This document shows, piece by piece, positions 1,764 through 19,997 of a DNA stretch of 64,000 bases; the first letter of the stretch is position 1; the number at the start of each line of letters is the position of its first letter. The DNA lies in assembly GCF_056712565.1 (NCBI RefSeq), contig NZ_CM160072.1. One strand, given 5' to 3'. The position numbers and the translations under genes are program-made. Below the pieces are notes generated by a model that did no database searches, was not told the DNA's origin, and worked only from the letters and a program-made list of their open reading frames with translations.

Positions 1764-1777
1764 GGTGTTTACTCCGT

Positions 1778-2275: not shown

Positions 2276-2556
2276 TACGGTTTCCCCCTGCCCTTAAAGC
2301 GGCGCTGAATGGCAATCTCAATCACCTGATAACCGGCGATACCCAGCATGGAGCCGATGCCGCACACCGCAGGCAGTGACAGGTCAGGAAACTGCACCAG
2401 AACAACACCGGCAACCATCGAGACAAAACCACCGAGCAACATGCGCCCGATAAACAGACGCGGGGTGATGGGTTCACCACCGGCAAGCACCTTGCCGACA
2501 ACAATCAGCACCCCAATCATGAAAAGCGACAGGACGCTTTTTTCTTCTGCTGTCAT
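2275..2556 (-). CDS. Y: Holin (P2 gpY)
   Basis: 93 aa with hydrophobic TM segments, upstream of endolysin. Confidence 0.85.
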   Translation of the reverse strand: MTAEEKSVLSLFMIGVLIVVGKVLAGGEPITPRLFIGRMLLGGFVSMVAGVVLVQFPDLSLPAVCGIGSMLGIAGYQVIEIAIQRRFKGRGKP

Positions 2557-2559
2557 GCG

Positions 2560-2763
2560 TTACTCCCACAGATTGACAGTTTCAGCCACGGGCGCGGTCT
2601 GAACGTCGGGCAGTTCGACGGCGGAGCCATGTGGCAGCACCGCACCCAGTTCAGCCAGTCCCGGATTTGCGGCGAGCACGGTCTCAACCACGCCCTCAGT
2701 GCGCCCGTAATACCGGACACAAATGGCGTCGAGCGTGTCGCCCTGTAGCGCAAAGGTCTTCAT
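2560..2763 (-). CDS. X: P2 gpX tail protein
   Basis: 67 aa from ATG at 2763 (MKTFALQGDTLDAICVRYYG...), ATGA overlap with L stop. Confidence 0.75.
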   Translation of the reverse strand: MKTFALQGDTLDAICVRYYGRTEGVVETVLAANPGLAELGAVLPHGSAVELPDVQTAPVAETVNLWE

Positions 2764-3272
2764 CAGATTTGACTCACGATGCAGCGCGGCTTGTCCTGGA
2801 TGCGCGCCGCTGCCCAGCGCATATCCCGCCACAGCTCATCAATGGTGCTGTCAATGCTGTCGGCCTTCTTGTCTCCTTTCGCACTGGCATCCACGCCGCG
2901 GTAACGCTCATAAAGCGACGCGGTCGCCATCGCACACACGGCGCGCTCGTAGTAAAAAACTTTGATACTTTCACCGTCGATATCGTCCGCCGGAACGTCC
3001 GCCAGACGCGTAAAACCGGCGGCAATTTTCTGTTCGCGGTACTCGTACAGCTCCGCATTTGTTTCCGCCATGCCTGACTTGATGGCCTCACGCAGACGGG
3101 CGGGGGCGACGGTCTGCTCAAGGCGCATACGTTCCCGGACGCGCTTCGGGTCGATATCGGGAAAAAAGAACGTGTTTTTAATCACCGGCTCGTCGCCTGC
3201 CGGTTGCGGGATGACCACCGTACCCTCACCGGACACGGGAGCCTCCTTTCGCGGAATAATCAGCGTCATCAT
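2763..3272 (-). CDS. L: Head completion/stabilisation protein (P2 gpL)
   Basis: 169 aa from ATG at 3272 (MMTLIIPRKEAPVSGEG...). Confidence 0.85.
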   Translation of the reverse strand: MMTLIIPRKEAPVSGEGTVVIPQPAGDEPVIKNTFFFPDIDPKRVRERMRLEQTVAPARLREAIKSGMAETNAELYEYREQKIAAGFTRLADVPADDIDGESIKVFYYERAVCAMATASLYERYRGVDASAKGDKKADSIDSTIDELWRDMRWAAARIQDKPRCIVSQI

Positions 3273-3371
3273 GACTACCTCTGAAAAGTCGGGCGGTGGA
3301 CGCCGGTGCAGTGTCAGGTGATTCACCCTCACTGACCGGCGTGCCGCCCTGGCGCGGGGCGCATTCGGTTG

Positions 3372-4115
3372 TTAACTGGCTTTCTTTTTCGGGCGTCCAC
3401 GTTTTGCCGGTGTCACGCTCCGGGTCTTACGCGTGGCACGGGTGGCCGCTTTGGGTTGCGGCTCCGGCTTAGGTTTCAGCTCCCGCTCCAGTCGCTCAAT
3501 CTCTTTTTTGACGCCTGCCTGACAGTCGAGCTGTGTCGCACGTTGCAGGTGAGCCAGCGCACCGGCGGCATCACCACCGTCACGCAGAAACAGACCGGTG
3601 ATTTTGTGCAGCTTTGCGCGCACTTCATCAGGCATGTCAGCAGCGGCAGTCAGTTCAAGGGTCTCCGTCAGCAGGCGGGTATCCACAGACTCACCGGCCG
3701 CGTGGGCGCGCATGGCCGCGAGCGCGACCTCCTCGGTGAACATATACGGCGGGGTGCGGCGGTGTTTACCCGGCATGGTCAGACCGTATTTCAGGGCATA
3801 ACGGGCAATCTCCAGCGCACCGGCAATATCGCCGGTATCCAGACGCCACAGCATGACCGTCATCAGAATGTCATCCTGTGCGCCTTTGCCCTGCTCCAGC
3901 ACGCCGTTCACCCACGGCAACCAGAACGGCAGCAGTTCGCGCTTTTTCGCGGCCTTCAGCTCTTTTGAATAAATCGCTTTCAGTGTGCGCTGGTCTGCGG
4001 CCAGCTTGACCAGCATCTGCTCATAGACAGTTGCATGTCGCAGCGGGGCGGCTTCCCGCTGCGCGGTCATCGCTGCCGAGACCCGCATCATGTGGCGCTG
4101 TGCGGGACTCGTCAT
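3372..4115 (-). CDS. M: Terminase small (endonuclease) subunit (P2 gpM)
   Basis: 247 aa, between L and N as in P2. Confidence 0.85.
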   Translation of the reverse strand: MTSPAQRHMMRVSAAMTAQREAAPLRHATVYEQMLVKLAADQRTLKAIYSKELKAAKKRELLPFWLPWVNGVLEQGKGAQDDILMTVMLWRLDTGDIAGALEIARYALKYGLTMPGKHRRTPPYMFTEEVALAAMRAHAAGESVDTRLLTETLELTAAADMPDEVRAKLHKITGLFLRDGGDAAGALAHLQRATQLDCQAGVKKEIERLERELKPKPEPQPKAATRATRKTRSVTPAKRGRPKKKAS

Positions 4116-4118
4116 CGG

Positions 4119-5192
4119 TTACGCTCCCGGCTCTGCGGTCGCCTTAGCCGGTGTGGAGAAATCACCGACCTTAATTTTTTCCACCAGACAACCGGCGGCG
4201 TAGTCTTCCACCACGTAATCAATGTTCATTGACTCGTAGTTCTCCACGCGGTCGAGTTTCGGGTTTTCCACAATCACGCGGCGATGGCTGTCATCCATGT
4301 AGTAGATGGACAGGTTTTCCAGCTTCGTGATGAGCATCGCATCCGCCGGGAAGTACGGGACGCGTACCGCCGGCAGGTTACCGATGCGTTTCTGGCTGAT
4401 GATGACGTCAGCGGCCAGCATTTCGCTGTTGTCCTGCTCCTTGTTAACGATGGGGAAATACTTGTCCGCCAGTAGCTGACGCCCCACAATCACCACAAGG
4501 TCAGGGTCTTCCTGATACCACGGTTCAATCAGGTTGTTGGTCGCATCCATCACCAGTGCATCAAGGCTGGCATAATCACCGCCCTTACCCACGCGGATGA
4601 CCTCAGAGGTCGTGTGACCTTCCTCGTCAGTGACCTTGCTCATCACACGCGCCGGGGCTTCATTGCGGTATTTCTGCAGCCAGCCGACCGCCACATCCTG
4701 CAACATCGGATTACTGTTGCGGTCAGAGGTTTCTGCACGCTTCACGCCGTTAAAACCGGCCATGATGAAATCAAGGGACTGGCGTTTGATAATGGCGTTA
4801 CGGATACGGAGCTGGAAATCCTGATAACGCGCCCACAGGTCCAGCGTTTTGTAGCGGATATAAAAATCGAAGTTAATCTGGTCGCATTCGTACTTGTTAG
4901 ACGCCAGCTTCGAGAAGTCCTTCGGCTGACGCTCGGTGCCACCGGCGGTGTCGGTGGTGCTGGCGATGGAGCCGGTGACACCGATACCAATTTTTTCCCC
5001 TTTCATTTCGCTGACCGGCACAATGTTGATGCGGGTCAGAAAGTCAGAGGACTCCTGCATGGTGTTCATCAGGGTCTGGGTGACCGACGGTTCAACGGTG
5101 AATTTTTTCGACACATCACCGGCGTCGATGCCGTTCAGCTCGGCAACACGGGACAGGTAGGCATTAAATTTAAAGCGGGTTTCCTGGCGCAT
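4119..5192 (-). CDS. N: Major capsid protein (P2 gpN)
   Basis: 357 aa, P2 gpN length and position. Confidence 0.9.
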   Translation of the reverse strand: MRQETRFKFNAYLSRVAELNGIDAGDVSKKFTVEPSVTQTLMNTMQESSDFLTRINIVPVSEMKGEKIGIGVTGSIASTTDTAGGTERQPKDFSKLASNKYECDQINFDFYIRYKTLDLWARYQDFQLRIRNAIIKRQSLDFIMAGFNGVKRAETSDRNSNPMLQDVAVGWLQKYRNEAPARVMSKVTDEEGHTTSEVIRVGKGGDYASLDALVMDATNNLIEPWYQEDPDLVVIVGRQLLADKYFPIVNKEQDNSEMLAADVIISQKRIGNLPAVRVPYFPADAMLITKLENLSIYYMDDSHRRVIVENPKLDRVENYESMNIDYVVEDYAAGCLVEKIKVGDFSTPAKATAEPGA

Positions 5193-5250
5193 AGTTTTTC
5201 CTGAAATTAAGGGTTAATCGTGAAGGTTTTCCCGGACTGACTGACGCCGG

Positions 5251-6105
5251 TCAGCAGTTCGTCATCAGGGCGTCACCGCCACCACCGGTGGCCTTGCTGC
5301 GGCGCTGCTGGGTCAGACTTTCGGTGTGGTCGAGACTGTTTTTCAGGCGGGTGAATGCCTGGCTGGTTTCATCCGCCCTGTCAGTCACCTCCTGCTTAAG
5401 TGCGGAAAAGGCGGTTTCCATCTCAGCGAGGCGCTGCTCAGTGGCGCTCAGTTTTTCCTGCACATGTTCAGCAACAGCGGTCACCGCTTCATGCACGTCA
5501 TTCAGACGGGCATCATCGCTGGCCTGTTTGCGGCCAAAAATGGACTTCACCTTTTCGGTCAGGACGGTGAACACTGTTTCAGGCAGGTCTTCAAATTCCA
5601 GCTCAACAGGCGTTGCCACTGAAATCAGGTTTTCAGGGCTTAATTTGAAGCGGTTCAGGGGGTTGTGTTTTGCCGTGCGGCAGAATTCCAGGTATTCCGT
5701 GCCGAGGCTTGCCGGGTCATCGGTGACGGCCAGACCCACCAGATAACATTTGCCGGTGTTGGCAAAGTTCGGCTGAATTTCCATTGAGGTGTAGACCTTC
5801 TGCGCGGCCTTGTTCATCGCGATAAGGTCATCGGTCGGGGTGATTTTCGCAAACAGCGCCCATTTGCCTTTCAGCGCCGAATCATCGTCAATCTTTTCGG
5901 CCTTAAGTTCGGCCACATCGCCATAACGTTTAAAAATACCGTCAGGCAGGATGCCGCGCAGATGTTCCAGGTTAATGCGGCAACCGTAGACACGCGGGTC
6001 AAAGGTTTCAGCCATTTCCTGAATATCCTGCGCACTGATGACACGCCCGTCACAGGTGTCACCCTCAACGCCGATACGAAAGAATTTTGAGACTTTTTTT
6101 GCCAT
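5251..6105 (-). CDS. O: Capsid scaffolding protein (P2 gpO)
   Basis: 284 aa from ATG at 6105 (MAKKVSKFFRIGVEGDTCDGRV...); ORF track start is further upstream. Confidence 0.85.
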   Translation of the reverse strand: MAKKVSKFFRIGVEGDTCDGRVISAQDIQEMAETFDPRVYGCRINLEHLRGILPDGIFKRYGDVAELKAEKIDDDSALKGKWALFAKITPTDDLIAMNKAAQKVYTSMEIQPNFANTGKCYLVGLAVTDDPASLGTEYLEFCRTAKHNPLNRFKLSPENLISVATPVELEFEDLPETVFTVLTEKVKSIFGRKQASDDARLNDVHEAVTAVAEHVQEKLSATEQRLAEMETAFSALKQEVTDRADETSQAFTRLKNSLDHTESLTQQRRSKATGGGGDALMTNC

Positions 6106-6278
6106 TGTCAGGAGTCCTGAATAGTGATTAGAGGAGTCACATGTCGGCATCAGTTTCCCGACGATGCGCATCCTCCGCCATCAGTCCCGGATGGCTTATC
6201 ACTGACACAACAGCACCTTAGCGAATCGCAGGGCGCGACTCAGTAGCCTTGCCGTGTATTCATCACGGCGAGGTATTC
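6106..6278. promoter_or_regulatory. Divergent late-promoter region between O and P (P2 PO/PP, Ogr-activated in P2)
   Basis: Position only; a clean TGT-N12-ACA activator site could not be identified by eye. Confidence 0.35.
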
Positions 6279-8051
6279 ATGACCATCACCACAGACACCA
6301 CTCTTTTACACGACCCGCGTCGTCAGGCGGCGCTGCTGTACTGGCAGGGATTTTCCGTGCCGCAGATTGCCGCCATGTTGCAGATGAAACGCCCGACAGT
6401 GCAGAGCTGGAAACAGCGCGACGGCTGGGACAACGTTGCCCCCATCAGCCGTGTCGAAATGAGCCTGGAAGCGCGGCTGACCCAGCTCATCATCAAACCG
6501 CAGAAAACCGGCGGTGACTTCAAGGAAATTGACCTGCTGGGACGCCAGATTGAACGACTGGCACGGGTAAATCGTTACAGCCAGACCGGCAACGAGGCAG
6601 ACCTTAATCCGAACGTCGCTAACCGCAACAAAGGCGGGCGGCGCAAACCGAAAAAAAATTTTTTCAGTGACGAGGCCATCGAAAAGCTGGAGCAGATTTT
6701 CTTTGAGCAGTCTTTCGACTATCAGTTGCACTGGTATCGCGCCGGGCTTGAGCACCGCATCCGCGATATCCTGAAATCCCGCCAGATTGGCGCGACGTTT
6801 TATTTTTCCCGCGAGGCGCTGCTGCGCGCCCTGAAAACCGGCCATAACCAGATTTTTCTGTCGGCCAGTAAAACGCAGGCGTATGTGTTCCGCGAATACA
6901 TCATCGCCTTTGCCCGGCTGGTTGACGTTGACCTGACCGGTGACCCGATTGTCCTGGGCAATAACGGCGCAAAACTGATTTTTCTCGGCACCAACTCCAA
7001 CACCGCACAGAGCCATAACGGCGACCTGTACGTCGACGAGATTTTCTGGATCCCGAATTTTCAGGTACTGCGTAAGGTGGCATCAGGTATGGCCTCACAG
7101 AGTCACCTGCGCTCGACCTATTTCTCCACCCCGTCCACGCTGGCGCACGACGCCTACCCGTTCTGGTCAGGTGAACTGTTCAACCGGGGACGCGCCAGCG
7201 CCGCCGAACGCGTGGAAATCGACGTCAGTCATAACGCCCTTGCCGGTGGGCTTCTCTGTGCGGACGGCCAGTGGCGGCAGATTGTCACCATTGAGGACGC
7301 CCTGAAAGGTGGCTGCACGCTGTTCGACATTGAACAGCTCAAACGCGAAAACAGCGCCGACGATTTTAAAAACCTGTTCATGTGTGAATTTGTTGACGAC
7401 AAGGCGTCGGTGTTCCCGTTCGAGGAGCTGCAACGCTGCATGGTCGACACGCTGGAAGAATGGGAAGACTATGCGCCGTTTGCCGCCAATCCGTTCGGCT
7501 CCCGCCCGGTCTGGATTGGTTACGACCCGTCACACCGTGGCGACAGCGCCGGATGCGTGGTACTGGCACCGCCGGTGGTGGCCGGTGGCAAATTCAGAAT
7601 ACTTGAGCGTCACCAGTGGAAAGGCATGGACTTTGCCACTCAGGCGGAATCCATCCGCAAACTCACCGAAAAATACAACGTCGAATACATCGGTATTGAT
7701 GCCACCGGCCTCGGTGTCGGCGTGTTCCAGCTCGTGCGCTCGTTCTATCCCGCCGCGCGCGATATCCGCTACACGCCGGAAATGAAAACCGCAATGGTGC
7801 TCAAGGCAAAAGACGTCATCCGCCGTGGCTGTCTGGAATATGACGTCAGCGCCACCGACATCACCAGCTCGTTTATGGCTATCCGCAAGACCATGACCAG
7901 CAGCGGACGCAGCGCCACTTATGAGGCCAGCCGCAGCGAGGAAGCCAGCCACGCCGACCTCGCCTGGGCGACCATGCACGCCCTGTTAAATGAGCCACTC
8001 ACCGCCGGTATCAGCACCCCGCTGACATCCACCATTCTGGAGTTTTACTGA
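6279..8051 (+). CDS. P: Terminase large (ATPase) subunit (P2 gpP)
   Basis: 590 aa from ATG at 6279 preceded by GAGGT; MTITTDTTLLHDPRRQAALLYWQG... Confidence 0.9.
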   Translation: MTITTDTTLLHDPRRQAALLYWQGFSVPQIAAMLQMKRPTVQSWKQRDGWDNVAPISRVEMSLEARLTQLIIKPQKTGGDFKEIDLLGRQIERLARVNRYSQTGNEADLNPNVANRNKGGRRKPKKNFFSDEAIEKLEQIFFEQSFDYQLHWYRAGLEHRIRDILKSRQIGATFYFSREALLRALKTGHNQIFLSASKTQAYVFREYIIAFARLVDVDLTGDPIVLGNNGAKLIFLGTNSNTAQSHNGDLYVDEIFWIPNFQVLRKVASGMASQSHLRSTYFSTPSTLAHDAYPFWSGELFNRGRASAAERVEIDVSHNALAGGLLCADGQWRQIVTIEDALKGGCTLFDIEQLKRENSADDFKNLFMCEFVDDKASVFPFEELQRCMVDTLEEWEDYAPFAANPFGSRPVWIGYDPSHRGDSAGCVVLAPPVVAGGKFRILERHQWKGMDFATQAESIRKLTEKYNVEYIGIDATGLGVGVFQLVRSFYPAARDIRYTPEMKTAMVLKAKDVIRRGCLEYDVSATDITSSFMAIRKTMTSSGRSATYEASRSEEASHADLAWATMHALLNEPLTAGISTPLTSTILEFY

Positions 8052-9085
8052 TGAGCAAGAAAAAAGGGAAAACACCGCAACCTGCGGCAAAAAAAATGAC
8101 CGCCAGCGCCCCGAAAATGGAGGCATTCACCTTTGGTGAGCCGGTGCCGGTACTCGACCGCCGTGACATTCTGGATTACGTCGAGTGCATCAGTAACGGC
8201 AGATGGTATGAGCCGCCGGTCAGCTTTACCGGTCTGGCGAAAAGCCTGCGTGCTGCCGTGCATCACAGCTCACCGATTTACGTTAAACGCAATATTCTGG
8301 CCTCGACATTTATCCCGCATCCGTGGCTTTCGCAACAGGATTTCAGCCGCTTTGTGCTGGATTTTCTGGTGTTCGGTAATGCGTTTCTGGAAAAGCGTTA
8401 CAGCACCACCGGTAAGATCATCAGACTGGAAACCTCACCGGCAAAATATACCCGCCGTGGCGTGGAGGAGGATGTTTACTGGTGGGTGCCGTCCTTCAAC
8501 GAGCCGACACCTTTCGCGCCCGGTTCCGTGTTTCACCTGCTGGAGCCGGATATTAATCAGGAGCTGTACGGCCTGCCGGAATATCTCAGCGCCCTTAACT
8601 CTGCCTGGCTGAATGAGTCGGCCACGCTGTTCCGCCGCAAGTATTACGAAAACGGCGCGCATGCCGGATACATCATGTACGTCACCGATGCCGTGCAGGA
8701 CCGCAACGATATCGAAATGCTTCGCGAAAACATGGTGAAGTCGAAAGGCCGCAATAACTTTAAAAACCTGTTTCTCTATGCCCCACAGGGGAAAGCCGAC
8801 GGCATTAAAATTATCCCGCTCAGTGAAGTGGCGACGAAGGACGATTTTTTTAATATCAAAAAAGCCAGCGCCGTTGACCTGCTGGATGCGCACCGCATCC
8901 CCTTTCAGTTGATGGGCGGCAAGCCGGAAAACGTCGGGTCTCTGGGTGATATTGAGAAAGTGGCAAAGGTCTTTGTCCGCAATGAACTTATCCCGCTACA
9001 GGACAGGATTCGGGAAATAAACGGCTGGCTCGGTCAGGAGGTCATCCGCTTTAAAAACTACTCACTGGACACTGACAACGGCTGA
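8051..9085 (+). CDS. Q: Portal protein (P2 gpQ)
   Basis: 344 aa, ATGA overlap with P stop. Confidence 0.9.
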   Translation: MSKKKGKTPQPAAKKMTASAPKMEAFTFGEPVPVLDRRDILDYVECISNGRWYEPPVSFTGLAKSLRAAVHHSSPIYVKRNILASTFIPHPWLSQQDFSRFVLDFLVFGNAFLEKRYSTTGKIIRLETSPAKYTRRGVEEDVYWWVPSFNEPTPFAPGSVFHLLEPDINQELYGLPEYLSALNSAWLNESATLFRRKYYENGAHAGYIMYVTDAVQDRNDIEMLRENMVKSKGRNNFKNLFLYAPQGKADGIKIIPLSEVATKDDFFNIKKASAVDLLDAHRIPFQLMGGKPENVGSLGDIEKVAKVFVRNELIPLQDRIREINGWLGQEVIRFKNYSLDTDNG

Positions 9086-9090
9086 ACATC

Positions 9091-9112
9091 GCCGCCTGCG
9101 GGCGGCTTTTTT
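9091..9112 (+). terminator. Rho-independent terminator after Q
   Basis: GCCGCC-tgcg-GGCGGC hairpin followed by TTTTTT. Confidence 0.7.
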
Positions 9113-9254
9113 ACACCCCGTCATCACGCCCTCACACGCTCACCACCGCACAAAACACCCCGCAGACACACCAGCGCCTCAACGGGCAGACTAAGCGCCG
9201 TCACGACGCGCTGAGACGCTGAAAAAATAAAATCAGCACCACCGCCAGCGCGCA

Positions 9255-9273
9255 GTGCTTTCCCCGCCTCGCC
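9255..9273. other. P2 cos site (19-nt cohesive-end sequence)
   Basis: gtgctttccccgcctcgcc is the reverse complement of GGCGAGGCGGGGAAAGCAC, the P2 cohesive end as I recall it; about 170 nt downstream of Q as in P2. Confidence 0.6.
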
Positions 9274-9466
9274 CGCCCGCTTCATGGGGCGGTTTTAATG
9301 CAGTTGCATGATGAAACTGAAATCACATCAGCACTGACCGAAACTGACAAAAAGAATAGTATCTGACACATGCAAAAACACGCACTTAATATACGCCTAT
9401 CTATAGCTCCTACAGGATTGTCAAAAAACGACCAACTCGTCATAGCGTAAACACATTTGGCTCAAC

Positions 9467-9565
9467 GAACACTTACGTTATATGCCTCTTGAACATATCA
9501 AAGTCTTAAGGTAGATCTTTACCACTAAGTGGCTATATTAAGCTGCTTTTTTACATACAATAAAA
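9467..9565 (+). promoter_or_regulatory. Putative promoter region of the cargo gene (AT-rich; candidate -10 TATATT 9534-9539 or TACAAT 9556-9561)
   Basis: AT-rich upstream region with -10-like hexamers; no convincing -35; SD GAGG at 9578-9581. Confidence 0.25.
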
Positions 9566-9588
9566 GCTTTATCGTATGAGGCATAAAA

Positions 9589-11805
9589 ATGGAACTTAGA
9601 TTAAAAAATGTTACCAGTTATAAGAAAGACGCCTTCACAATACTGAATCTTGAAAAAAGAGTAAACATACTATACGGCCAAAATGGTTGTGGCAAATCTA
9701 CCATTTCAAATTATTTCTACGACTCTACACACACAGATTATAACGAGTGTGAATGTACCCTTCTTGACAATTACAAACCTCTTGTTTACAACACTAAATT
9801 TATTGAAGATAACTTCTATAATGCACAGGAACAAAAAGGTGTTTTTACATTAAGTAAAGAAAATGCAGATATTGAAAAACAATTAATTGAAAAAGAAGCA
9901 ATTAAACAGCAACTCACAGAGCAATATAGACAAAAAAAAGGAGTGTTATTGAAATTAGAAGCAGAAATGGAAAAAAAAGAAAATGAATACATCGAATCGA
10001 TCTGGAAAAAAACAGAACCAATCAGAAACTCTGTACTAAAAACCTTAATGAAAGGTAAAGTTGGCTATAAAAGACCTTTTTTTGAGATGATAAAATCATC
10101 CTCACCAATCACCTTTATTAATTTAAATGATATAGCAAAAGAATACTCTATACTATTAGAAAATAGAAACAATGAAACCGCATTAATAACTCCTTTACAT
10201 CCATATACCCCATCAATTGATGATGTAAATACATTAGCAACACCTATAATAGATACAAGCAATAGCTATTTATCAGAAACCATTAATAAACTTCATAATC
10301 TTGACTGGGTAAAAAAAGGTAAAGAACATTATTTAGACGGTTCTACATGTCCGTTTTGTCAGGAAAAAACTATTAGTCACGAATTTTTAAATGCCCTTAA
10401 ATCAATATTTGACGAAAGTTATTCAAAGAAAGTAAAACAGCTCTCAGATATAAAGTCAGTTTATGAGAAAAATACCATATATCATTTTAACGAAATACAA
10501 AACAATATATCATCATGTGCACTAATCAATGAGAAAGATAAAGAGAACATTATTTCCAATATTAAAATATTGCAAAACATTGCAGAAAAAAATTTAATAA
10601 ACATTATTGATAAGATCAACAATCCATCAACATGCGTTACATTAGAAATTGATAAAGAACTAGAAAATCATGTTCAGGAAAGCATAGGCGCTGTTAACAA
10701 GAAAATAAGAGACATAAATGATAAGGTTAAAAAACTCAAAGAGTATGAGAATAAAATCGGAAAACAAGTTTGGGGGGCTCTCCATGCTTTTTGCAGCGAT
10801 GATTTAGAGAATTTATCCAAACACAAAGAAAAATTCTTTGATATCAAAAAGAAAGTTCATGATGAATTAAATAATATTGAGCAACAAGGAAAAGAAAATA
10901 ATCTCACAATAAAAGCATTGCGAGATAAAATATCTAACATTGATTCTACGATAGACTCAATAAACACCCATTTAAAAAATCTAGGGATCTCTGGTTTTTG
11001 TATTGAAAAACATGCAGAAAGAAAAGATATGTACATTATATCTCGACCAGGGCATACAAAAAACCAAAATGTTTATAGATCTCTTAGCGAAGGTGAAAAA
11101 ACACTAATAACGTTTCTTTATTTTTTAGAGTGCTGTAAAGGTAAAACCGATAAAAATGATACCGATAGCAGGGATATTTTTATTGTTATTGACGATCCAA
11201 TATCTAGTCTATCGCAAAACTATGTCTACGACATCGCATCAATTATTCATCACCACATTATAAAAAATGAATTAACAAAGAAGGTATTAATCCTTACTCA
11301 CAATCTTTATTTCTTTCATGAACTTATTAAGCTATCTCCTAAAAGCAGAGAAGACAAACTATTTAAGAAAAACTATTATCTAGGTAGAGTAACGAAAAAT
11401 GATTTTAGTATAATTACTGAAATACAAAAAAACAGCATACAGAATGAATATCAATCTTTGTGGCAAATATTAAAAGATGCAAAAGATGGCAAAGCAAACA
11501 AAATCATAATACCGAATATTATGAGAAACATACTAGAATATTATTTTGCATTTGTTCATAGAACAGATGCTCTACAAGATGAATTAACAAAGTTGGCACG
11601 CGACGATAGCAACAGTGATTTCAAAGCATTCTACAGATACATTAACAGAGGTTCTCACTCTGATGCGGTAAATATTACTGATATGGGCGACATAGACCCA
11701 GATAAATACCTAAAACAATTGAGAACAATATTTTCAGCTACTGGTGACGAAATGCATTATTTAAAAATGATGGACGAACTAGAAGAGGAAAACGTTACCG
11801 CTTAG
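9589..11805 (+). CDS. ABC-type ATPase with coiled-coil/zinc-hook insertion and C-terminal effector-like domain; RloC/PrrC-like candidate anticodon nuclease (stand-alone defence gene)
   Basis: 738-aa ORF; Walker A GQNGCGKST, CPFC in a K/E/N-rich insert, LSEGEK signature, IFIVIDDP Walker B, LILTHN H-loop, C-terminal RNILE...H; strongly AT-rich relative to flanking prophage; sits in the P2 cos-A accessory position. Confidence 0.55.
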   Translation: MELRLKNVTSYKKDAFTILNLEKRVNILYGQNGCGKSTISNYFYDSTHTDYNECECTLLDNYKPLVYNTKFIEDNFYNAQEQKGVFTLSKENADIEKQLIEKEAIKQQLTEQYRQKKGVLLKLEAEMEKKENEYIESIWKKTEPIRNSVLKTLMKGKVGYKRPFFEMIKSSSPITFINLNDIAKEYSILLENRNNETALITPLHPYTPSIDDVNTLATPIIDTSNSYLSETINKLHNLDWVKKGKEHYLDGSTCPFCQEKTISHEFLNALKSIFDESYSKKVKQLSDIKSVYEKNTIYHFNEIQNNISSCALINEKDKENIISNIKILQNIAEKNLINIIDKINNPSTCVTLEIDKELENHVQESIGAVNKKIRDINDKVKKLKEYENKIGKQVWGALHAFCSDDLENLSKHKEKFFDIKKKVHDELNNIEQQGKENNLTIKALRDKISNIDSTIDSINTHLKNLGISGFCIEKHAERKDMYIISRPGHTKNQNVYRSLSEGEKTLITFLYFLECCKGKTDKNDTDSRDIFIVIDDPISSLSQNYVYDIASIIHHHIIKNELTKKVLILTHNLYFFHELIKLSPKSREDKLFKKNYYLGRVTKNDFSIITEIQKNSIQNEYQSLWQILKDAKDGKANKIIIPNIMRNILEYYFAFVHRTDALQDELTKLARDDSNSDFKAFYRYINRGSHSDAVNITDMGDIDPDKYLKQLRTIFSATGDEMHYLKMMDELEEENVTA

Positions 11806-11833
11806 GCCGCATATTATCGTTTTGGGTAAGAAC

Positions 11834-11853
11834 GACGGTGCTTACGCACCGTC
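11834..11853. terminator. Hairpin downstream of cargo gene (possible weak or bidirectional terminator)
   Basis: GACGGTGC-ttac-GCACCGTC perfect 8-bp stem; no clear T-run. Confidence 0.3.
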
Positions 11854-12028
11854 TCCCAACGCCCAAAGCGGTAGCGGTTGTACTGGCGTACATTCACTAG
11901 CTTTAACATGAGGCAATCTCCATGCCAGCACTATTGTTGCCAATAGCAGCCTTTATACCCTTTGTACAAAGCTAATACCAAGAGTAATGCAAAGTAGATG
12001 TCCCAAGCGGTAACGGGGCTATTCTATG

Positions 12029-14320
12029 TCAAACACAGAAAAAATCAAAGCGCCCTATGAATCCCCCCCAACCATCAGCGACCGGATACGTGAATTTTTT
12101 CCCGTCATAATTTACGGTCGCTCCACGCGCCAGCGCCTCAAGCTCCCATCGCTGCGGCATGATACCGTTCTGAGCAAGGTCAACGCGGATACGGGTGATT
12201 TGCAATCGTTCAGACCTGGTCAGTCTGGCAGATGGTGCAATTTCATGCGGTTTTAACGGGCTTCCGTTTCTTTGCTGACGGTTTGGCGTTCTCAGGTCGT
12301 ATTTTAATGCGCCCCTGAGCGCCCTCACGACCTCCGGTTCATTCCATTCAATAACACCGTCATCAACCAGATTAAGCACTGCTGCGGCGTGCTCAGAAGG
12401 TGTGGGAGCCGGTAACGAAGTATCACCACCGGTGAGCTTTCCACAGTTATTGACAGGACTCCGAGGCGCGGCGATGCCGCTTTTTAAAGTCAAAGGCTCA
12501 ACGACCGGAACTTTCGGCACAATGCGCCAGTCCGTCGTTCTGGTGATATGAATATGACGCGCGCCGAGATGCGGCGCGTAAATGCCGACCACTCTCTCGA
12601 CTTCTTCCTCGTACTCGTTAACGTCATCCGACGGGCTACGGGCAACCCTGACAGTCTGACAATCGCGCGGGACATTTGCCCCACCCTGCGCGCTGATATA
12701 CAACGCAAAATCACCACTGTCTGCGGCAGCGCGAGCAGCCTCGACGCGTTCGTCAAACTCATCAGCAATACTGACGCCGCGAGGCAATTTGCGTAGTTCA
12801 CGGTAAGCCCCCATTGTCGGCAGGCCAACCGTTTTAAATTGCGGAATTCGCCACGTTGACGCCCATGCGGTAACAGCCGCAGCAGTATCTTTCAGCGGCC
12901 TGCCGGTATCATTATCGAGCTGACCATCCAGTGCATAGCCATCGATGTTTTTTGAGATGTATTTTGCGATATACCCCGCAGCACCGCCCCGGTTAAGATG
13001 TTTTGCCTGAAAACGGTTTCGCGCGGCTCCTCTTTCGTCGCCATCCTCTTTGAGCGCATAGCGACGCATGATTTCGATAATCTGGTTACGCTGGCGTGGA
13101 TTACAAAAAAGCATCATATGCCAGTGCGGCGTTCCGTCGTGGTGTGGCTCGACGACACGCAAACCGTAGACCTGTAAATCATTATCCTTGAATGCCGTGC
13201 GCATCAGGCTCCAGATATGGCAGAGATAACGCTGCGCATCCTTTGGATTAAATGCCTCATCGTTCCAGCCGTGATTTAGCTGGACGGTTTTACTTTCGCC
13301 TTTTCCGACCTGACGTGTCGGGTGATACTTTGACGGCGCGGTAAGCGTGATAAACATCCCCACATCACCCTCTGCGGCGGCGTAACGCTCAATACCGGCA
13401 ATGGTGTTCATCAGCTCCATCCGGCGAATTTCAGGATTAGAAATACTGCCCATCACCTTACTGATAAGGTCGATGCGTTCGCCGGTTTCCCTGTTTTCAA
13501 GGTCACACGATTTAAGAAATTCCAGATTTGCCTGGCGGCGTGCACGCACATCACGAATGGCATGTTTACTGGCATAAGGTGAACGGTCTTTATTGACCTC
13601 CCCGACAGCAATCAGTAACGCCTCATGCCAGCGCATACGCTGGCCTTTAAGCTGACTAATCCACCACTCATCGTTAAACAGGCGGGCAATGGCAGAATAT
13701 GCCTGCCTCGTGGTCATCTGTCCTTTACGGTATTTTTTCCAGTAGAGCGGGGAAATATTGAAAGCACGTGCAGCGCCAGCAACATGACCATAGAGGTGAG
13801 CCTGCGCCTCATCCGTAAACAGCGATTCTTTTTCGCCATGCGCATCCACCCAGGCATCGCAGAGTTCCTCATACATCATGAAAAGCTGCGATGAGATACG
13901 GGCGGCAAACTTTTTCAGCTCCTTATCATTCATCCCCGGCAGACGCGCATAATGGTCACGCTCTGCCAGAAACAGCAACGACGCGTCGGTGTTCATTTCA
14001 TGGCGCTGATTCACACGCTCAATGCGCGGCCATAAACGACGCTGAAAAGTGGATGTGAGGAAATAAAACCCGTGCACCGGGCTTTTATTGCGCCGGATGT
14101 AGTCATAGCGTGAAGTAAACAGCGAGCGCAAAAAGTAAGGCAGGCGGTTAATCGTGGATAAAACACCTTGCACCTGACGCATCTCGTCACGTGTAAGGGG
14201 TCTTTCGCGCCCGACGGCCTCGCGTGGCGCGTTCCATGCATAAGCACCGGTAAACGTCTTACCGGTGCCTGCGGTAAATGCTGACGGAGGGACAAAACGC
14301 CCGGAGGCTTTAACGGCCAT
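12029..14320 (-). CDS. A: Replication initiation (rolling-circle nicking) protein (P2 gpA)
   Basis: Long ORF; start taken at ATG 14320 (MAVKASGRFVPPSAF...) rather than the ORF-track start at 14362. Confidence 0.9.
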   Translation of the reverse strand: MAVKASGRFVPPSAFTAGTGKTFTGAYAWNAPREAVGRERPLTRDEMRQVQGVLSTINRLPYFLRSLFTSRYDYIRRNKSPVHGFYFLTSTFQRRLWPRIERVNQRHEMNTDASLLFLAERDHYARLPGMNDKELKKFAARISSQLFMMYEELCDAWVDAHGEKESLFTDEAQAHLYGHVAGAARAFNISPLYWKKYRKGQMTTRQAYSAIARLFNDEWWISQLKGQRMRWHEALLIAVGEVNKDRSPYASKHAIRDVRARRQANLEFLKSCDLENRETGERIDLISKVMGSISNPEIRRMELMNTIAGIERYAAAEGDVGMFITLTAPSKYHPTRQVGKGESKTVQLNHGWNDEAFNPKDAQRYLCHIWSLMRTAFKDNDLQVYGLRVVEPHHDGTPHWHMMLFCNPRQRNQIIEIMRRYALKEDGDERGAARNRFQAKHLNRGGAAGYIAKYISKNIDGYALDGQLDNDTGRPLKDTAAAVTAWASTWRIPQFKTVGLPTMGAYRELRKLPRGVSIADEFDERVEAARAAADSGDFALYISAQGGANVPRDCQTVRVARSPSDDVNEYEEEVERVVGIYAPHLGARHIHITRTTDWRIVPKVPVVEPLTLKSGIAAPRSPVNNCGKLTGGDTSLPAPTPSEHAAAVLNLVDDGVIEWNEPEVVRALRGALKYDLRTPNRQQRNGSPLKPHEIAPSARLTRSERLQITRIRVDLAQNGIMPQRWELEALARGATVNYDGKKFTYPVADGWGGFIGRFDFFCV

Positions 14321-14585
14321 ATGAGCCAAAAGCCTCTGAACAACGCTTGCTGAGTTGCTCAACCTGCGCGTTTAAATCAGCAAAAGACTTTGCGCTTCCG
14401 GTCAGAATATCGTGATGCATCAGGCCGGAAACGAGCTGGCTTAATTTCGGGTAATAACCAACCACCGCCAGCCATTCCTGACCGGCGTTTTTACCGCTTT
14501 CCGCTCTCTTTTTCTCGTGGAGAATAAACTGAAAGCTGTCACTGGTAACGACATAACGTTCGCCAATTTCAATACGAATACTCAT
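14310..14585 (-). CDS. P2 early-operon small protein (orf80-83 family)
   Basis: 91-aa ORF immediately upstream of A. Confidence 0.6.
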   Translation of the reverse strand: MSIRIEIGERYVVTSDSFQFILHEKKRAESGKNAGQEWLAVVGYYPKLSQLVSGLMHHDILTGSAKSFADLNAQVEQLSKRCSEAFGSYGR

Positions 14586-14806
14586 GCCGTTCTCCGGTAA
14601 TGTTTGTTTTTTGCTTCAAAGACTGACTGACAGGAAACACAACGCGTGGCTGACGGATAAGCCGCACGACGGGCAGCAGGTATTGGCGCGTCACACTCTT
14701 CGCAAACCAGCGCAGAAGCACCGCAATGTTTTACCCTTGCCGCGTTAATCTGGCGCTCCAGTAATTCAGCCTGTTGTTCCTGAATAAAATCTACGTTGTC
14801 CGGCAT
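14582..14806 (-). CDS. TraR/DksA-type C4 zinc-finger protein of the P2 early operon
   Basis: 74 aa with C-x2-C ... C-x2-C (CEEC ... CVSC). Confidence 0.7.
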   Translation of the reverse strand: MPDNVDFIQEQQAELLERQINAARVKHCGASALVCEECDAPIPAARRAAYPSATRCVSCQSVFEAKNKHYRRTA

Positions 14807-14808
14807 TA

Positions 14809-15111
14809 TCAGCTCCTTTTATCGTTAAGTTTCCTGGATACATCAGCGCAATAACTGGCAAGTTCTGTCGTTAATTTTGTCAGTTCATCCACTGAGGAAA
14901 TTTGCTTGTGGAATACAGCGCGTTTAACAAGTAAATTGACCACATCAGACAGGAGGTTTAATTCATTCTGATAAATCGCGATAACAGATTCAGTGATGTC
15001 GCGTTTTTCTTTATCAAGACAAAGTTGAATAAGAGACAAATCGCCATTTTTCATAACGGCGATTTTTAAGGCGTTATTCAGTAATACAACTGAATGAGAA
15101 CAGGACATCAA
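14809..15111 (-). CDS. P2 early-operon small protein, hypothetical
   Basis: 100-aa ORF, tightly packed in early operon. Confidence 0.6.
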
Positions 15112-15332
15112 AGTACCTCCCCGCGAGACAATCCGATATTGTGAAATTTTTCCGACTCCTGACTGAGCAGCTCGACTATCTCCACGCGGGATAACTCCGC
15201 CTTTGTGATATGGCGAATCATGGCGTCAAGATGAGAAGAAAAGCGCGTCGCAGCGTCGGCCTGTGCTTCGGTTCTGGCCTGTTGCAGCAGTAATGCGTAT
15301 TTACCGCACTGATTTTCAGAAACTGTATGCAT
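15108..15332 (-). CDS. P2 early-operon small protein, hypothetical
   Basis: 74-aa ORF, overlapping stop/start with neighbour. Confidence 0.6.
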
Positions 15333-15395
15333 GACTTTCTCCGGGCAAAAAGAAGCCCCGCACGATTAAGCGCGTTAAAAACTCTGGTTAATTAC

Positions 15396-15902
15396 TTAAT
15401 GCAGATATTGCTCTGGTTTTACCGACGTCAGAATTGTCGGTGCATACTCAAACAGACTGAATAATTCACGTAATGCACGGAATAAAGCATCACGCCAGTA
15501 ACATGATTCCTCATTAATTCGCCAGTATGGCTGGTTAAATTCTTTTTCTGTCAGTCGTGCGTGCATAAATAAAGTGCGACGCTGACTGACTGTTAAAAAA
15601 CTAATATATGCATACTCACTTGCGCCAACCTGACGGCGTTTTGAGAATGCCCCACGCAACTCATCAATTGCACATACCAGTCGTTCACGTTCGACGTCGT
15701 TCATTTCTTCAAAACGCATCGTTGCGTGACGCTGTTTTAACTGCGCATGAAAGCAAACCGTTAGCCGTTCGCGCTCCATCATCTGATTATAATAATCACA
15801 TGTATCCTGCCAGCGAGGAACGGCAAGATGCTTACCAATTATCCGGCGCATAGCTGCTGGCTGTTTTTCAACGAGATTGAGCGTCATCACTGTCATTTCC
15901 AT
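15396..15902 (-). CDS. B: Replication protein B
   Basis: 168-aa ORF (possible real start at 15896, MTVMTLNL...); P2 position between cox and the small ORFs. Confidence 0.8.
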   Translation of the reverse strand: MEMTVMTLNLVEKQPAAMRRIIGKHLAVPRWQDTCDYYNQMMERERLTVCFHAQLKQRHATMRFEEMNDVERERLVCAIDELRGAFSKRRQVGASEYAYISFLTVSQRRTLFMHARLTEKEFNQPYWRINEESCYWRDALFRALRELFSLFEYAPTILTSVKPEQYLH

Positions 15903-16063
15903 ACCCTCCGGCTTTTCAGAAAGGTCAGAGCCTTTTTTAACGGACTCTGTTTTTTGGTGCGGATAATGATTCCCTTACGCCCCTTACCGTGGGTGATGGT
16001 GAAGTCAATCGCCCTGGGGCTTTCGTTACGCAATAACTGAGCAATACAACGAGGCTCGTTCAT
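15893..16063 (-). CDS. P2 orf78-like small protein
   Basis: 56 aa from ATG 16063 preceded by AAGGAG; lies between cox and B. Confidence 0.5.
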   Translation of the reverse strand: MNEPRCIAQLLRNESPRAIDFTITHGKGRKGIIIRTKKQSPLKKALTFLKSRRVWK

Positions 16064-16073
16064 ACGGTTCTCC

Positions 16074-17971: not shown

Positions 17972-17998
17972 AATCTCCCTTACACGGGCTTATTTTTT
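17972..17998. other. P2 att core (prophage end, int-proximal)
   Basis: aatctcccttacacgggcttatttttt is the reverse complement of the 27-nt P2 core AAAAAATAAGCCCGTGTAAGGGAGATT as I recall it; 80 nt downstream of int. Confidence 0.55.
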
Positions 17999-19959: not shown

Positions 19960-19997
19960 TAAAACTATTCTCTGTTGAACCAGAGAGAATCCGTAAT

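What the first reader, a model, noticed from the sequence alone, without database searches (positions are those of the whole stretch)
9255..9273. P2 cos site marks the packaging end and bounds the cargo interval
An exact 19-nt match to the P2 cohesive-end sequence as I recall it lies about 170 nt past Q. This places the cargo gene immediately inside the genome end adjacent to cos.
Basis: partly seen in the sequence, partly recalled or inferred. Interest (0 to 1): 0.25.

Follow-up and report, generated by a model that had tools for sequence, protein, structure and literature searches.

The report
P2 phage packaging site, confirmed
The 19-base sequence is the packaging cut site (cos) of a near-identical relative of phage P2 integrated in E. 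coli, and it sits beside a well-documented slot for swappable anti-phage genes, so the finding is correct but ordinary.

Summary
Window 9255-9273 (minus strand) reads GGCGAGGCGGGGAAAGCAC. It occurs once in the window, none is expected by chance, and it is identical to the annotated cosL/cosR of the P2 reference AF063097.

The window carries a prophage about 98% identical to P2. Window 1-9273 matches P2 9271-1, and 12059-17999 matches P2 30295-24355, ending at an exact att core. The terminase, portal, repressor, Cox and integrase proteins are 98-100% identical to P2.

Only 9303-12058 lacks P2 homology. It replaces orf91-tin-old with one low-GC gene (9589-11805) that has every RloC anticodon-nuclease sequence hallmark.

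Rousset et al. 2022 already describe the cos-proximal gpA-gpQ hotspot, and their tables list this very protein (WP_000423308) and an "RloC-like" system.

Three refinements:
- The conserved cos core is about 62 bp (9248-9309), not just 19.
- A phased TGCAT repeat cluster lies 97-128 bp on the cargo side (9370-9397). It is conserved in P2, P4, 186, PSP3 and 108 viral contigs, so cargo proper probably starts near 9400.
- About 10% of P2-like elements also carry cargo between Q and cos.

Already known; low interest.

The parts
9255..9273 (-). cos 19-nt cohesive-end sequence (the cosN equivalent). By homology to P2/186, the predicted staggered nicks fall between 9273|9274 on the minus strand and between 9254|9255 on the plus strand, giving 19-nt 5' overhangs.
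   Evidence: Exact and unique in the window. Identical to AF063097 cosL 1-19 and cosR 33575-33593. The cut geometry is taken from the 186 and PSP3 annotations, 'top strand cut at 5' end, bottom strand cut at 3' end'. It is inferred here, not measured.
9248..9309 (.). Conserved cos core, the published '55-bp cos'. It has 7 bp on the Q side (TGCGCGC), the 19-mer, and about 36 bp on the cargo side, including TGCAAC-TGCAT-TAAAACCGCCCC.
   Evidence: Ungapped comparison with the P2, P4 and 186 junctions. P4-like satellites and some P2-like prophages in E. coli match only query 161-226, which is window 9246-9311. Per-position conservation is at least 0.85 at most positions from offset -36 to +25 in 110 unique IMG/VR contigs. 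The 55-bp figure comes from PMC9594776 and PMC2231350.
9370..9397 (-). Distal repeat cluster at fixed distance from cos. Repeat C is TGCAT at 9374-9370. Repeat B is TGCGT at 9384-9380. Repeat A-like is GGCGT at 9397-9393. It is a candidate terminase-binding (cosB-like) element.
   Evidence: TGCAT counts per 10-nt bin in 108 unique contigs are 66, 92 and 89 at offsets -130, -120 and -110, and 101 at -30. Elsewhere within +-400 nt they are mostly 0-3, with bins next to the peaks reaching 16. The preferred offsets are -124, -111 and -101. The cluster is present in P2, P4, 186 and PSP3 in different gene contexts and in both P2-like and P4-like classes. The window bases were verified. The function is inferred.
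9310..9369 (.). Spacer between the core and the distal repeats. Its sequence is not conserved but its length is fixed to within about 1 nt across elements.
   Evidence: Ungapped identity is near random here while the flanking islands stay in register.
9091..9112 (+). tQ, a rho-independent terminator of the P-Q operon (GCCGCCTGCGGGCGGC followed by TTTTTT).
   Evidence: Terminator scan. Homologous to the annotated tQ of P2 at 160-181.
9113..9247 (.). Non-coding left-end flank conserved among P2-like phages (P2 27-161) but absent from P4 and from P2-likes that carry cargo on the Q side. It is therefore probably dispensable for cos recognition.
   Evidence: 97.7% identity to P2. It is the match of query 1-160 in most E. 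coli hits but is missing in the core-only hits.
8051..9085 (+). Q, the portal protein.
   Evidence: Pfam Phage_portal. 98.3% aa identity to P2 gpQ.
6279..8051 (+). P, the terminase large (ATPase/nuclease) subunit, with an N-terminal HTH domain.
   Evidence: Pfam Terminase_6N, Terminase_6C and Terminase_5/HTH. 99.8% aa identity to P2 gpP.
3372..4115 (-). M, the second terminase subunit.
   Evidence: 98.8% aa identity to P2 gpM, which is annotated 'terminase'. RefSeq names it 'terminase endonuclease subunit'.
9303..12058 (.). Interval with no nucleotide homology to P2. It replaces P2 30296-33545 (orf91, tin, old). GC is 26-34% across the gene, against 50-60% for the backbone.
   Evidence: blastn against the complete P2 genome and the composition profile.
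9589..11805 (+). Cargo gene: a 738-aa RloC-like ABC-ATPase/anticodon nuclease (predicted), transcribed away from cos as P2 old is.
   Evidence: Pfam AAA_13 at 2e-111. PADLOC PDC-S06 at 1e-254 plus a C-terminal PrrC match. Motifs found: Walker A 30-37, CPFC 254-257, LSEGE 499-503, Walker B 531-536, and R646-x3-E650-x39-S689-H690, matching the RloC definition in PMC2610378. This is WP_000423308, which is listed at the P2 hotspot in Rousset 2022 Table S5.
12029..14320 (-). A, the replication initiator, which forms the other boundary of the cargo interval. Its last roughly 12 residues differ from P2, so the swap junction lies inside the 3' end of A.
   Evidence: Pfam Phage_GPA. 97% aa identity to P2 gpA with a divergent C-terminus. 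Homology resumes at 12059.
17972..17998 (-). att core at the int-proximal prophage end. Host yegR follows.
   Evidence: Exact match to the P2 attP core AAAAAATAAGCCCGTGTAAGGGAGATT. In the 99.99%-identical genome HS13-1 a second copy (2 mismatches) lies beyond ogr, next to yegQ, giving a prophage of about 33.3 kb.

Best explanation
Window 9255-9273 is the cohesive-end (cos) cleavage site of an apparently complete P2-type prophage. This prophage is essentially P2 with its old/tin/orf91 module replaced, and it is integrated between yegQ and yegR of an E. coli chromosome.

By homology with P2, the mechanism would run as follows. Int and Cox excise the prophage, and gpA drives replication. The gpM/gpP terminase then recognises the cos region on monomeric closed circles and makes two nicks 19 nt apart, at 9273|9274 on the minus strand and 9254|9255 on the plus strand. 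It threads the DNA through the gpQ portal. The resulting linear chromosome has Q at its left end and the cargo gene at its right end.

The recognised signal is larger than the 19-mer. It comprises a conserved core of about 62 bp (9248-9309) and, I infer, a phased cluster of TGCAT-type repeats 97-128 bp on the cargo side (9370-9397).

The DNA between this cos unit and gene A is the known cos-proximal hotspot for accessory and defence genes. Here it holds one low-GC gene for an RloC-like anticodon nuclease. The recombination junctions relative to P2 lie inside the cos core (9302/9303) and inside the last codons of A (12058/12059).

Shown here: sequence identity, uniqueness, synteny, conservation boundaries, intact cognate genes, and att repeats. 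Inferred: actual cleavage, a role for the TGCAT repeats in packaging, and RloC activity.
For: - The 19-mer is exact and unique, with 0 expected by chance, and identical to the annotated P2 cosL/cosR.
- The window is collinear with P2 at about 98% on both sides of cos, apart from 9303-12058.
- The core is shared with P4 and 186.
- 2171 of 5426 complete E. coli genomes carry a match. In most sampled hits that include the Q side, homology ends at query 217-233, which is window 9302-9318. A second class matches only the roughly 62-bp core. That class includes P4-like satellites and P2-likes with cargo on both sides of cos.
- gpM, gpP and gpQ are 98.8%, 99.8% and 98.3% identical to P2. C is 99% identical, and Int and Cox are 100%.
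- The att core is exact at 17972-17998, with a partner copy beyond ogr in the 99.99%-identical HS13-1 genome. All late genes are annotated intact there.
- Literature: P2 and P4 share only a 55-bp cos, closed circles are the packaging substrate, and the overhangs are 19 nt (PMC2231350, PMC9594776). The cos-proximal gpA-gpQ locus is a defence hotspot (PMC9122126), and its supplementary tables list WP_000423308 and an 'RloC-like' AAA_13 system.
- Distal TGCAT repeats.
Against: - No experimental end-mapping exists for this prophage, and nothing here shows that it is ever excised or packaged.
- The part of the prophage left of gene S lies outside the window. Its completeness is inferred from a near-identical genome.
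- Two of the three distal repeats in the window deviate from TGCAT (TGCGT and GGCGT). If these repeats matter, packaging could be less efficient. However, 17 of 108 unique contigs also have only one exact copy.
- No isolated phage in the phage collection carries this exact cargo-side flank.
Confidence: 0.93

Rival explanations
1. The 19-mer is a fossil cos in a defective (cryptic) P2 remnant that can no longer be packaged, so it marks no real genome end today.
For: E. coli K-12 carries a P2 remnant (ogrK and neighbouring fragments) at this same yegQ-yegR site (own knowledge). Only the right-hand 18 kb of the prophage lies in the window.
Against: Every P2 gene in the window is full length and 97-100% identical to P2. 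The 99.99%-identical HS13-1 genome has the complete gene set from ogr to int, flanked by att cores, with a length of about 33.3 kb.
Confidence: 0.06
2. The site belongs to a P4-like satellite rather than to a P2-like helper phage. Both carry the same 19-mer.
For: P4 has the identical 19-mer and core. P4-like satellites are common in E. coli and give core-only matches.
Against: The site is flanked by Q/P/O/N/M on one side and by A/B/cox/C/int on the other, collinear with P2. There is no psu, delta, sid or alpha gene.
Confidence: 0.005
3. The region is protein-coding. A 53-codon ORF on the minus strand (9285..9124) spans the 19-mer and is annotated as a hypothetical protein (WP_000816492) in one RefSeq genome, so the conservation would reflect a small gene rather than a DNA site.
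For: PGAP annotates it in FDAARGOS_1298. The ORF is open in the window.
Against: - In P2 a 1-nt indel shifts the frame for the last third of the ORF, and its start is GTG instead of ATG.
- P4 and 186 conserve only the core, not the ORF.
- The predicted product is a low-complexity Gly/Ala/Arg-rich peptide.
- The P2 reference annotates no gene there.
Confidence: 0.02
4. The distal TGCAT cluster is not a packaging element. It would instead be a promoter or regulator-binding region for the outward-facing accessory gene, conserved by descent.
For: In P2 the mapped old-tin transcript starts (33424/33426) place the -35 region inside the cluster. In the window a sigma-70-like site (CTGACA-18-TAATAT, 9363-9392) overlaps it.
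Against: - The cluster sits at the same distance from cos in P4 (downstream of psu), in 186 (downstream of terminator t95b) and in PSP3. None of these has an annotated outward gene there.
- It persists next to unrelated cargo in 108 unique contigs, while the spacer sequence is random.
- The promoter scan is not above chance (13 found against 12.4 expected).
Confidence: 0.25

Closest known systems
Bacteriophage P2 cos (AF063097 cosL 1-19 / cosR 33575-33593; Padmanabhan et al. 1974; Ziermann & Calendar 1990)
   Same: The 19-mer is identical. The left flank is 97.7% identical through tQ and Q, and the first 29 nt of the right flank are 28/29 identical. The position is the same: 170 nt (167 in P2) beyond Q. 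The terminase and portal are near-identical.
   Different: Beyond 29 nt on the right the sequence is unrelated to P2. The window keeps the TGCAAC immediately before the proximal TGCAT, as P4 and 186 do, whereas P2 reads TTAAGG there. Two of the three distal TGCAT repeats are variant in the window.
Satellite phage P4 cos (NC_001609)
   Same: The 19-mer is identical, the conserved core of about 61 bp is shared, and so is the geometry of the distal TGCAT cluster.
   Different: P4 shares nothing else with the window. In P4-like elements the variable cargo lies on the other side of cos (between int and cos), and psu abuts the TGCAT side.
Coliphage 186 / PSP3 cos (U32222, AY135486)
   Same: The architecture, the TGCAT repeats and the spacing are the same.
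   Different: The 19-mer differs at 2 positions (GGCGTGGCGGGGAAAGCAT). The right end carries tum/orf97-type genes transcribed towards cos.
P2 'TO region' / cos-proximal defence hotspot between gpA and gpQ (Nilsson 2004; Odegrip 2006; Rousset et al. 2022, PMC9122126)
   Same: The location, the low-GC foreign cassette and the single defence-type gene all fit. This exact protein (WP_000423308) and an 'RloC-like' AAA_13 system are in their tables.
   Different: Nothing substantive. I add only the nucleotide-level junctions (9302/9303 and 12058/12059).
Phage lambda cos (cosQ-cosN-cosB)
   Same: This is an analogy only. Both have a nicking site giving 5' overhangs, flanked on one side by repeated protein-binding elements at helical-repeat spacing. 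This rests on established knowledge of lambda.
   Different: There is no sequence similarity. The overhang is 19 nt rather than 12 nt. P2 prefers monomeric circles as substrate (PMC2231350). That the TGCAT repeats act like cosB R-sites is my inference and is untested.

Membership tests
P2-type cos site (Peduovirus cohesive-end packaging site) | 19-nt cohesive-end sequence GGCGAGGCGGGGAAAGCAC | tested here: met
   Exact match at 9255-9273 on the minus strand. Identical to the annotated P2 cosL/cosR.
P2-type cos site (Peduovirus cohesive-end packaging site) | Conserved ~55-bp core shared by P2 and P4 around the 19-mer | tested here: met
   Across window 9248-9308 there are 4 mismatches to P4 over 61 bp. 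Core-only matches to P4-like satellites cover 9246-9311.
P2-type cos site (Peduovirus cohesive-end packaging site) | Located just beyond the portal gene Q, at the junction of the late-gene end and the accessory right end of the genome | tested here: met
   The Q stop codon ends at 9085, tQ is at 9091-9112, and cos is at 9255-9273. The region is collinear with P2.
P2-type cos site (Peduovirus cohesive-end packaging site) | Cognate terminase (gpM + gpP) and portal encoded by the same element | tested here: met
   98.8%, 99.8% and 98.3% aa identity to P2 gpM, gpP and gpQ.
P2-type cos site (Peduovirus cohesive-end packaging site) | Cleaved in vivo to give 19-nt 5' overhangs at the virion DNA ends | not testable with these tools
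   This needs end sequencing of virion DNA. The only support is by homology and from deposited genomes that start at this base (H27-H30).
P2 cos-proximal accessory/defence hotspot (gpA-gpQ locus, Rousset 2022) | A variable cassette lying between replication gene A and cos/Q, unrelated between otherwise similar phages | tested here: met
   9303-12058 has no P2 homology while the flanks are about 98% identical. GC is 26-34% against 50-60%. Only 43 of the 2171 E. coli genomes with a cos match carry this cassette.
P2 cos-proximal accessory/defence hotspot (gpA-gpQ locus, Rousset 2022) | The cassette confers anti-phage defence | not testable with these tools
   Only predicted: PADLOC candidate PDC-S06 and RloC hallmarks. 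Rousset lists the system but the sections read here report no test of it.
RloC anticodon nuclease family (Davidov & Kaufmann 2008, PMC2610378) | Size 658-897 aa with ABC-ATPase motifs (Walker A, signature, Walker B/D-loop) | tested here: met
   738 aa, with GQNGCGKS at 30-37, LSEGE at 499-503 and FIVIDD at 531-536. Pfam AAA_13 at 2e-111.
RloC anticodon nuclease family (Davidov & Kaufmann 2008, PMC2610378) | CXXC zinc-hook in an insert that splits the ATPase domain | tested here: met
   CPFC at 254-257, between Walker A and the ABC signature. The coiled-coil character of the insert was not computed.
RloC anticodon nuclease family (Davidov & Kaufmann 2008, PMC2610378) | C-terminal Arg-X3-Glu-X36-52-His triad, with Ser often preceding His | tested here: met
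   R646-x3-E650-x39-S689-H690. PADLOC PrrC matches residues 490-730.
RloC anticodon nuclease family (Davidov & Kaufmann 2008, PMC2610378) | Wobble-nucleotide-excising tRNase activity | not testable with these tools
   This is a biochemical assay. No solved homologue was found by sequence search.

The most novel reading that the evidence does not exclude
The packaging signal of the P2/P4/186 family may be a composite of about 150 bp rather than the 55-bp core usually quoted. It would consist of the core plus a phased cluster of three direct TGCAT repeats at -124, -111 and -101 from the 19-mer, separated from the core by a spacer of fixed length but free sequence. The cluster would act as the terminase-binding (cosB-like) element, bound for example by gpM or by the HTH N-domain of gpP. 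Because the swap junction here lies inside the core (9302/9303), cargo cassettes would travel together with their own spacer and distal repeats. Homologous exchange would then use the cos core and the 3' end of A as its portable arms. This may already be described in Ziermann & Calendar 1990, which I could not read.
Probability: 0.3. Interest if true: 0.35.

Novelty: already known. Interest (0 to 1): 0.1.

Why it matters
For annotation, the result fixes the virion genome ends and the limits of the accessory cassette in this prophage. It also identifies the cassette as an RloC-like defence candidate carried by a P2 clone found in 43 of 5426 complete E. coli genomes, including APEC O1 and the type strain ATCC 11775. 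No new biology follows from the 19-mer itself, because P2 cos and the cos-adjacent hotspot are textbook and recently surveyed material. The only potentially useful by-product is the strictly positioned TGCAT repeat cluster. If it is the terminase-binding part of cos, it would matter for designing efficient P2/P4 cosmids, since longer cos flanks raised transduction about 10^4-fold in PMC9594776. It would also sharpen the delimitation of hotspot cargo.

Tried and rejected
- **Hairpin next to the 19-mer.** I considered CCGCCC...GGGCGG (9273-9292, flagged as terminator-like) as a conserved structure. I rejected it because 186 does not keep the pairing (by inspection), and a DNA recognition site does not need one.
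- **Cos-spanning ORF.** The ORF 9285..9124 is annotated in one RefSeq genome. I rejected it as a gene because its frame is not conserved in P2.
- **Promoter for the cargo gene.** The scan finds CTGACA-18-TAATAT at 9363-9392, but the number of sites in the region is not above chance, so no promoter is claimed.
- **Primary literature on cos.** I tried to read Ziermann & Calendar 1990, Christie & Calendar 2016 and Odegrip 2006. None is held. A full-text search for TGCAT with cos and terminase found nothing relevant. Two early paper searches failed on term length.
- **Database searches on the cargo protein.** The PDB sequence search gave no hit and NCBIfam gave nothing meaningful.
- **Isolated phage with this cassette.** I looked for one to show packaging competence of this exact right flank. 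None exists in the phage collection; only Enterobacter phage ENT4 has a 79%-identical partial RloC-like gene.
- **P2 non-inducibility.** Papers checked for a citable statement were not explicit. The claim therefore rests on my own knowledge plus the 99% identity of the C repressor.

Full report
**1. The observation**

The bases at window 9255-9273 read gtgctttccccgcctcgcc on the plus strand. The reverse complement is GGCGAGGCGGGGAAAGCAC. A pattern search allowing up to 3 mismatches finds this site and no other in the 64 kb. None of 100 dinucleotide-preserving shuffles produced a match.

The P2 reference genome AF063097 annotates bases 1-19 as 'cosL; left cohesive end' and 33575-33593 as 'cosR; right cohesive end'. 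Both read GGCGAGGCGGGGAAAGCAC.

The upstream ORF 8051-9085 is a portal protein (Pfam Phage_portal) that is 98.3% identical to P2 gpQ. The site thus starts 170 nt past Q, as claimed. Deposited linear genomes of Wphi, 11W and vB_YpM_117 begin at exactly this base (H27-H30).

**2. What surrounds it**

A blastn of window 1-20000 against complete P2 gives three segments:

| Window | P2 | Identity |
|---|---|---|
| 1-9273 | 9271-1 | 97.7% |
| 9255-9302 | 33593-33546 | 97.9% |
| 12059-17999 | 30295-24355 | 98.0% |

The window therefore holds the right-hand 18 kb of a P2 prophage in inverted orientation. The gene order is S...L, M, N, O, P, Q, cos, cargo, A, orf83-80, B, cox, C, int, att.

Protein identities to P2 are:
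- gpM 98.8%, gpP 99.8%, gpQ 98.3%
- C 99%, Cox 100%, Int 100%
- gpA 97%, with a different C-terminal dozen residues

The P2 attP core occurs exactly at 17972-17998. The rest of the window is host chromosome, from yegR to btsS.

The whole window is 99.99% identical to E. coli HS13-1. In that genome the prophage continues through the tail genes, D and ogr to a second att core (2 mismatches) next to yegQ. The element is about 33.3 kb and all late genes are annotated intact. I take the prophage to be complete, but this is inferred from a near-identical genome because the left part lies outside the window.

**3. The cargo interval**

Only 9303-12058 lacks P2 homology. It replaces P2 30296-33545, which holds orf91, tin and old. 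GC falls to 26-34% across the gene, against 50-60% in the backbone.

The interval contains one long ORF, 9589-11805 (+), transcribed away from cos like P2 old. Evidence on its identity:
- Pfam AAA_13 at 2e-111.
- PADLOC candidate PDC-S06 at 1e-254, with a C-terminal PrrC match.
- Motifs: Walker A at 30-37, CPFC at 254-257 between Walker A and the ABC signature, LSEGE at 499-503, Walker B at 531-536, and R646-x3-E650-x39-S689-H690.

These are the defining sequence features of RloC as set out by Davidov & Kaufmann (PMC2610378). The protein is RefSeq WP_000423308.

The cassette together with cos is present in 43 of 5426 complete E. coli genomes, including APEC O1. The cos-to-cargo-start stretch is also 100% identical in the type strain ATCC 11775.

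**4. How large the cos is**

I compared the window with the circularised junctions of P2, P4 and 186. Conservation runs from TGCAAC-TGCAT-TAAAACCGCCCC, about 36 nt on the cargo side, through the 19-mer, to TGCGCGC, 7 nt on the Q side.

A survey of complete E. coli genomes supports this. Of 5426 genomes, 2171 have a match. In most sampled hits that include the Q side, homology ends at query 217-233, which is window 9302-9318. A second class matches only query ~161-226, which is window 9246-9311. One such hit is a P4-like satellite with the order int, helicase, hypothetical, cos, psu, delta, sid. Another is a P2-like prophage in strain MS 69-1. There a retron Ec48 module sits between Q and cos and a DUF7380 gene sits between cos and A.

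This core of about 62 bp corresponds to the '55-bp cos' that the literature attributes to Ziermann & Calendar 1990 (PMC9594776, PMC2231350, PMC3931495). The same papers state that closed circular monomers are the preferred packaging substrate and that the ends are 19-nt cohesive ends.

**5. A second conserved island**

I scanned IMG/VR for the exact 19-mer and extracted +-200 to +-400 nt around it from 108-110 unique contigs. In what follows, offsets are in P2 orientation, and window coordinate = 9273 minus offset.

Per-position identity to the window is at least 0.85 at most positions from -36 to +25. It falls to random in the next 60 nt. It then rises again at about -111 to -97.

The cause is a set of direct TGCAT repeats:
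- TGCAT counts per 10-nt bin are 66, 92 and 89 at -130, -120 and -110, and 101 at -30. Elsewhere within +-400 nt they are mostly 0-3, with bins next to the peaks reaching 16.
- The preferred positions are -124 (or -120), -111 and -101. This is a 10-13 nt phasing.
- P2, P4, 186 and PSP3 all have the three distal repeats plus the proximal one.
- The cluster is present in both P2-like contigs (mean 2.3 exact copies, n=90) and P4-like contigs (mean 3.0, n=14).

The gene context of the cluster differs between these phages. In P2 it overlaps the region upstream of the mapped old-tin transcript starts. In P4 it follows psu. In 186 it follows terminator t95b. In PSP3 it follows orf38. The one function these elements share at this place is packaging by the P2-type terminase. 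I therefore infer that the cluster is part of the packaging signal, analogous to lambda cosB. This is untested.

Pseudomonas phage phiCTX has annotated repeats of a different motif (R3-R6) around its cos. That suggests the architecture is a family trait.

In the window the cluster reads GGCGT (9397-9393), TGCGT (9384-9380) and TGCAT (9374-9370). Only one copy is exact, as in 17 of the 108 contigs.

The accessible literature mentions only the 55-bp core, and I could not read the 1990 paper. I therefore cannot say whether this cluster is already described. PMC9594776 reports that a cosmid with longer cos flanks transduced roughly 10^4-fold better, which is consistent with the cluster being needed.

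**6.

The site is P2 cos, it defines the virion genome ends, and the cargo gene lies just inside the right end, where old lies in P2. Three refinements apply:
- The boundary of the truly free cargo is probably near 9400 rather than 9273. The swap junction relative to P2 itself lies inside the core, at 9302/9303. The other junction lies inside the 3' end of A, at 12058/12059.
- Cos is an island rather than a wall. About 10 of 91 P2-like contigs have 327-2730 nt between cos and Q instead of the usual ~173-178. In P4-like satellites the hotspot lies on the opposite side of cos.
- The prophage has P2 immunity, and there is no space for a tum-type antirepressor gene in the right-end interval. From established knowledge of P2, such prophages are not SOS-inducible. 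This was not tested here. Some P2-like prophages that carry tum are inducible (PMC11195241). End-mapping would therefore need spontaneous lysates, P4 superinfection or artificial derepression.

**7. Comparison with what is known, and novelty**

Everything in the finding is established:
- The P2 cohesive ends were sequenced by Padmanabhan et al. in 1974 (cited).
- The variable 'TO' locus between A and cos was described by Nilsson 2004 and Odegrip 2006 (cited).
- Rousset et al. 2022 systematically described the cos-proximal gpA-gpQ hotspot in 18,150 E. coli loci.
- Their Table S5 lists WP_000423308 thirteen times as 'AAA_13 + hypothetical'. It ranks an AAA_13 'RloC-like' system fifth, with 420 occurrences.

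The finding is correct and ordinary. The only item that might be new is the distal TGCAT cluster, and I rate that as uncertain.

**8. Verdict**

- Observation: confirmed.
- Interpretation: supported, with the refinements above.
- Novelty: already known.
- Interest: 0.1.

Noticed in passing
window 9370-9397 (also L005-L008, L135-L138, L015-L134): Three phased direct TGCAT-type repeats lie at fixed offsets (-124, -111, -101) from the cos 19-mer. A spacer of conserved length but unconserved sequence separates them from the core. They are present in P2, P4, 186, PSP3 and essentially all 108 unique IMG/VR contigs that carry the P2 19-mer. The window has the variant copies GGCGT and TGCGT plus one exact TGCAT.
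   Followed up: partly
window 9589-11805 (+): The cargo gene has all the sequence hallmarks of the RloC anticodon nuclease: Walker A, a CPFC zinc hook, the ABC signature, Walker B and an R-x3-E-x39-SH triad. GC is about 29%. It is RefSeq WP_000423308, already catalogued at the P2 hotspot by Rousset 2022.
   Followed up: partly
window 9124-9285 (-): A 53-codon ORF spans the cos 19-mer and is annotated as a hypothetical protein (WP_000816492) in RefSeq genome FDAARGOS_1298. The frame is not conserved in P2 (a 1-nt indel, and a GTG start), so it is probably a spurious call. If real, it would be intact only in circular or prophage DNA.
   Followed up: yes
L012 (E. coli MS 69-1, NZ_CP146675) 1246-5681: A P2-like prophage carries cargo on both sides of the cos core. 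A retron Ec48 reverse transcriptase and effector lie between Q and cos, and a DUF7380 gene lies between cos and A. About 10 of 91 P2-like IMG/VR contigs likewise have 0.3-2.7 kb between Q and cos.
   Followed up: partly
window 12029-12064 (-), the 3' end of gene A: The last roughly 12 codons of the replication gene A differ from P2 (GGFIGRFDFFCV against EWPGFSTVMEWT). The cassette-exchange junction therefore falls inside the coding sequence of A, and P2 orf91 is absent.
   Followed up: partly
window 53549-53638 (-) and 53884-53957 (+): A zorO/orzO type I toxin-antitoxin locus lies between yehK and yehL. The 29-aa ORF MDTLTQKLTVLIAVLELLVALLRLIDLLK matches ZorO as I recall it. The Rfam OrzO-P antitoxin sRNA scores 91.5 bits.
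   Followed up: partly
window 34343-34439 (-): A TPP riboswitch (Rfam RF00059, 71 bits) lies upstream of thiM-thiD, as annotated in HS13-1.
   Followed up: no
window 17972-17998 and beyond: The prophage is integrated between yegQ and yegR, with an exact P2 attP core at the int end. From my own knowledge, this is the site where E. coli K-12 keeps a P2 remnant (ogrK).
   Followed up: partly
outside the window: L004 2712-4645 (HS13-1): The second P2 variable locus (the Z/fun position, between G and FI) of the same prophage carries a DUF5677 protein, a short tyrosine-recombinase-like gene and a hypothetical gene instead of fun(Z).
   Followed up: no
window ~49281-57440 (yehI, yehK, yehM by transfer from L011): In the 99.99%-identical HS13-1 genome, yehI, yehK and yehM are annotated as frameshifted pseudogenes within the yehH-yehQ (DUF4132 / MoxR-like ATPase / vWA / SWIM) cluster. 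I did not check whether the same frameshifts are in the window.
   Followed up: no
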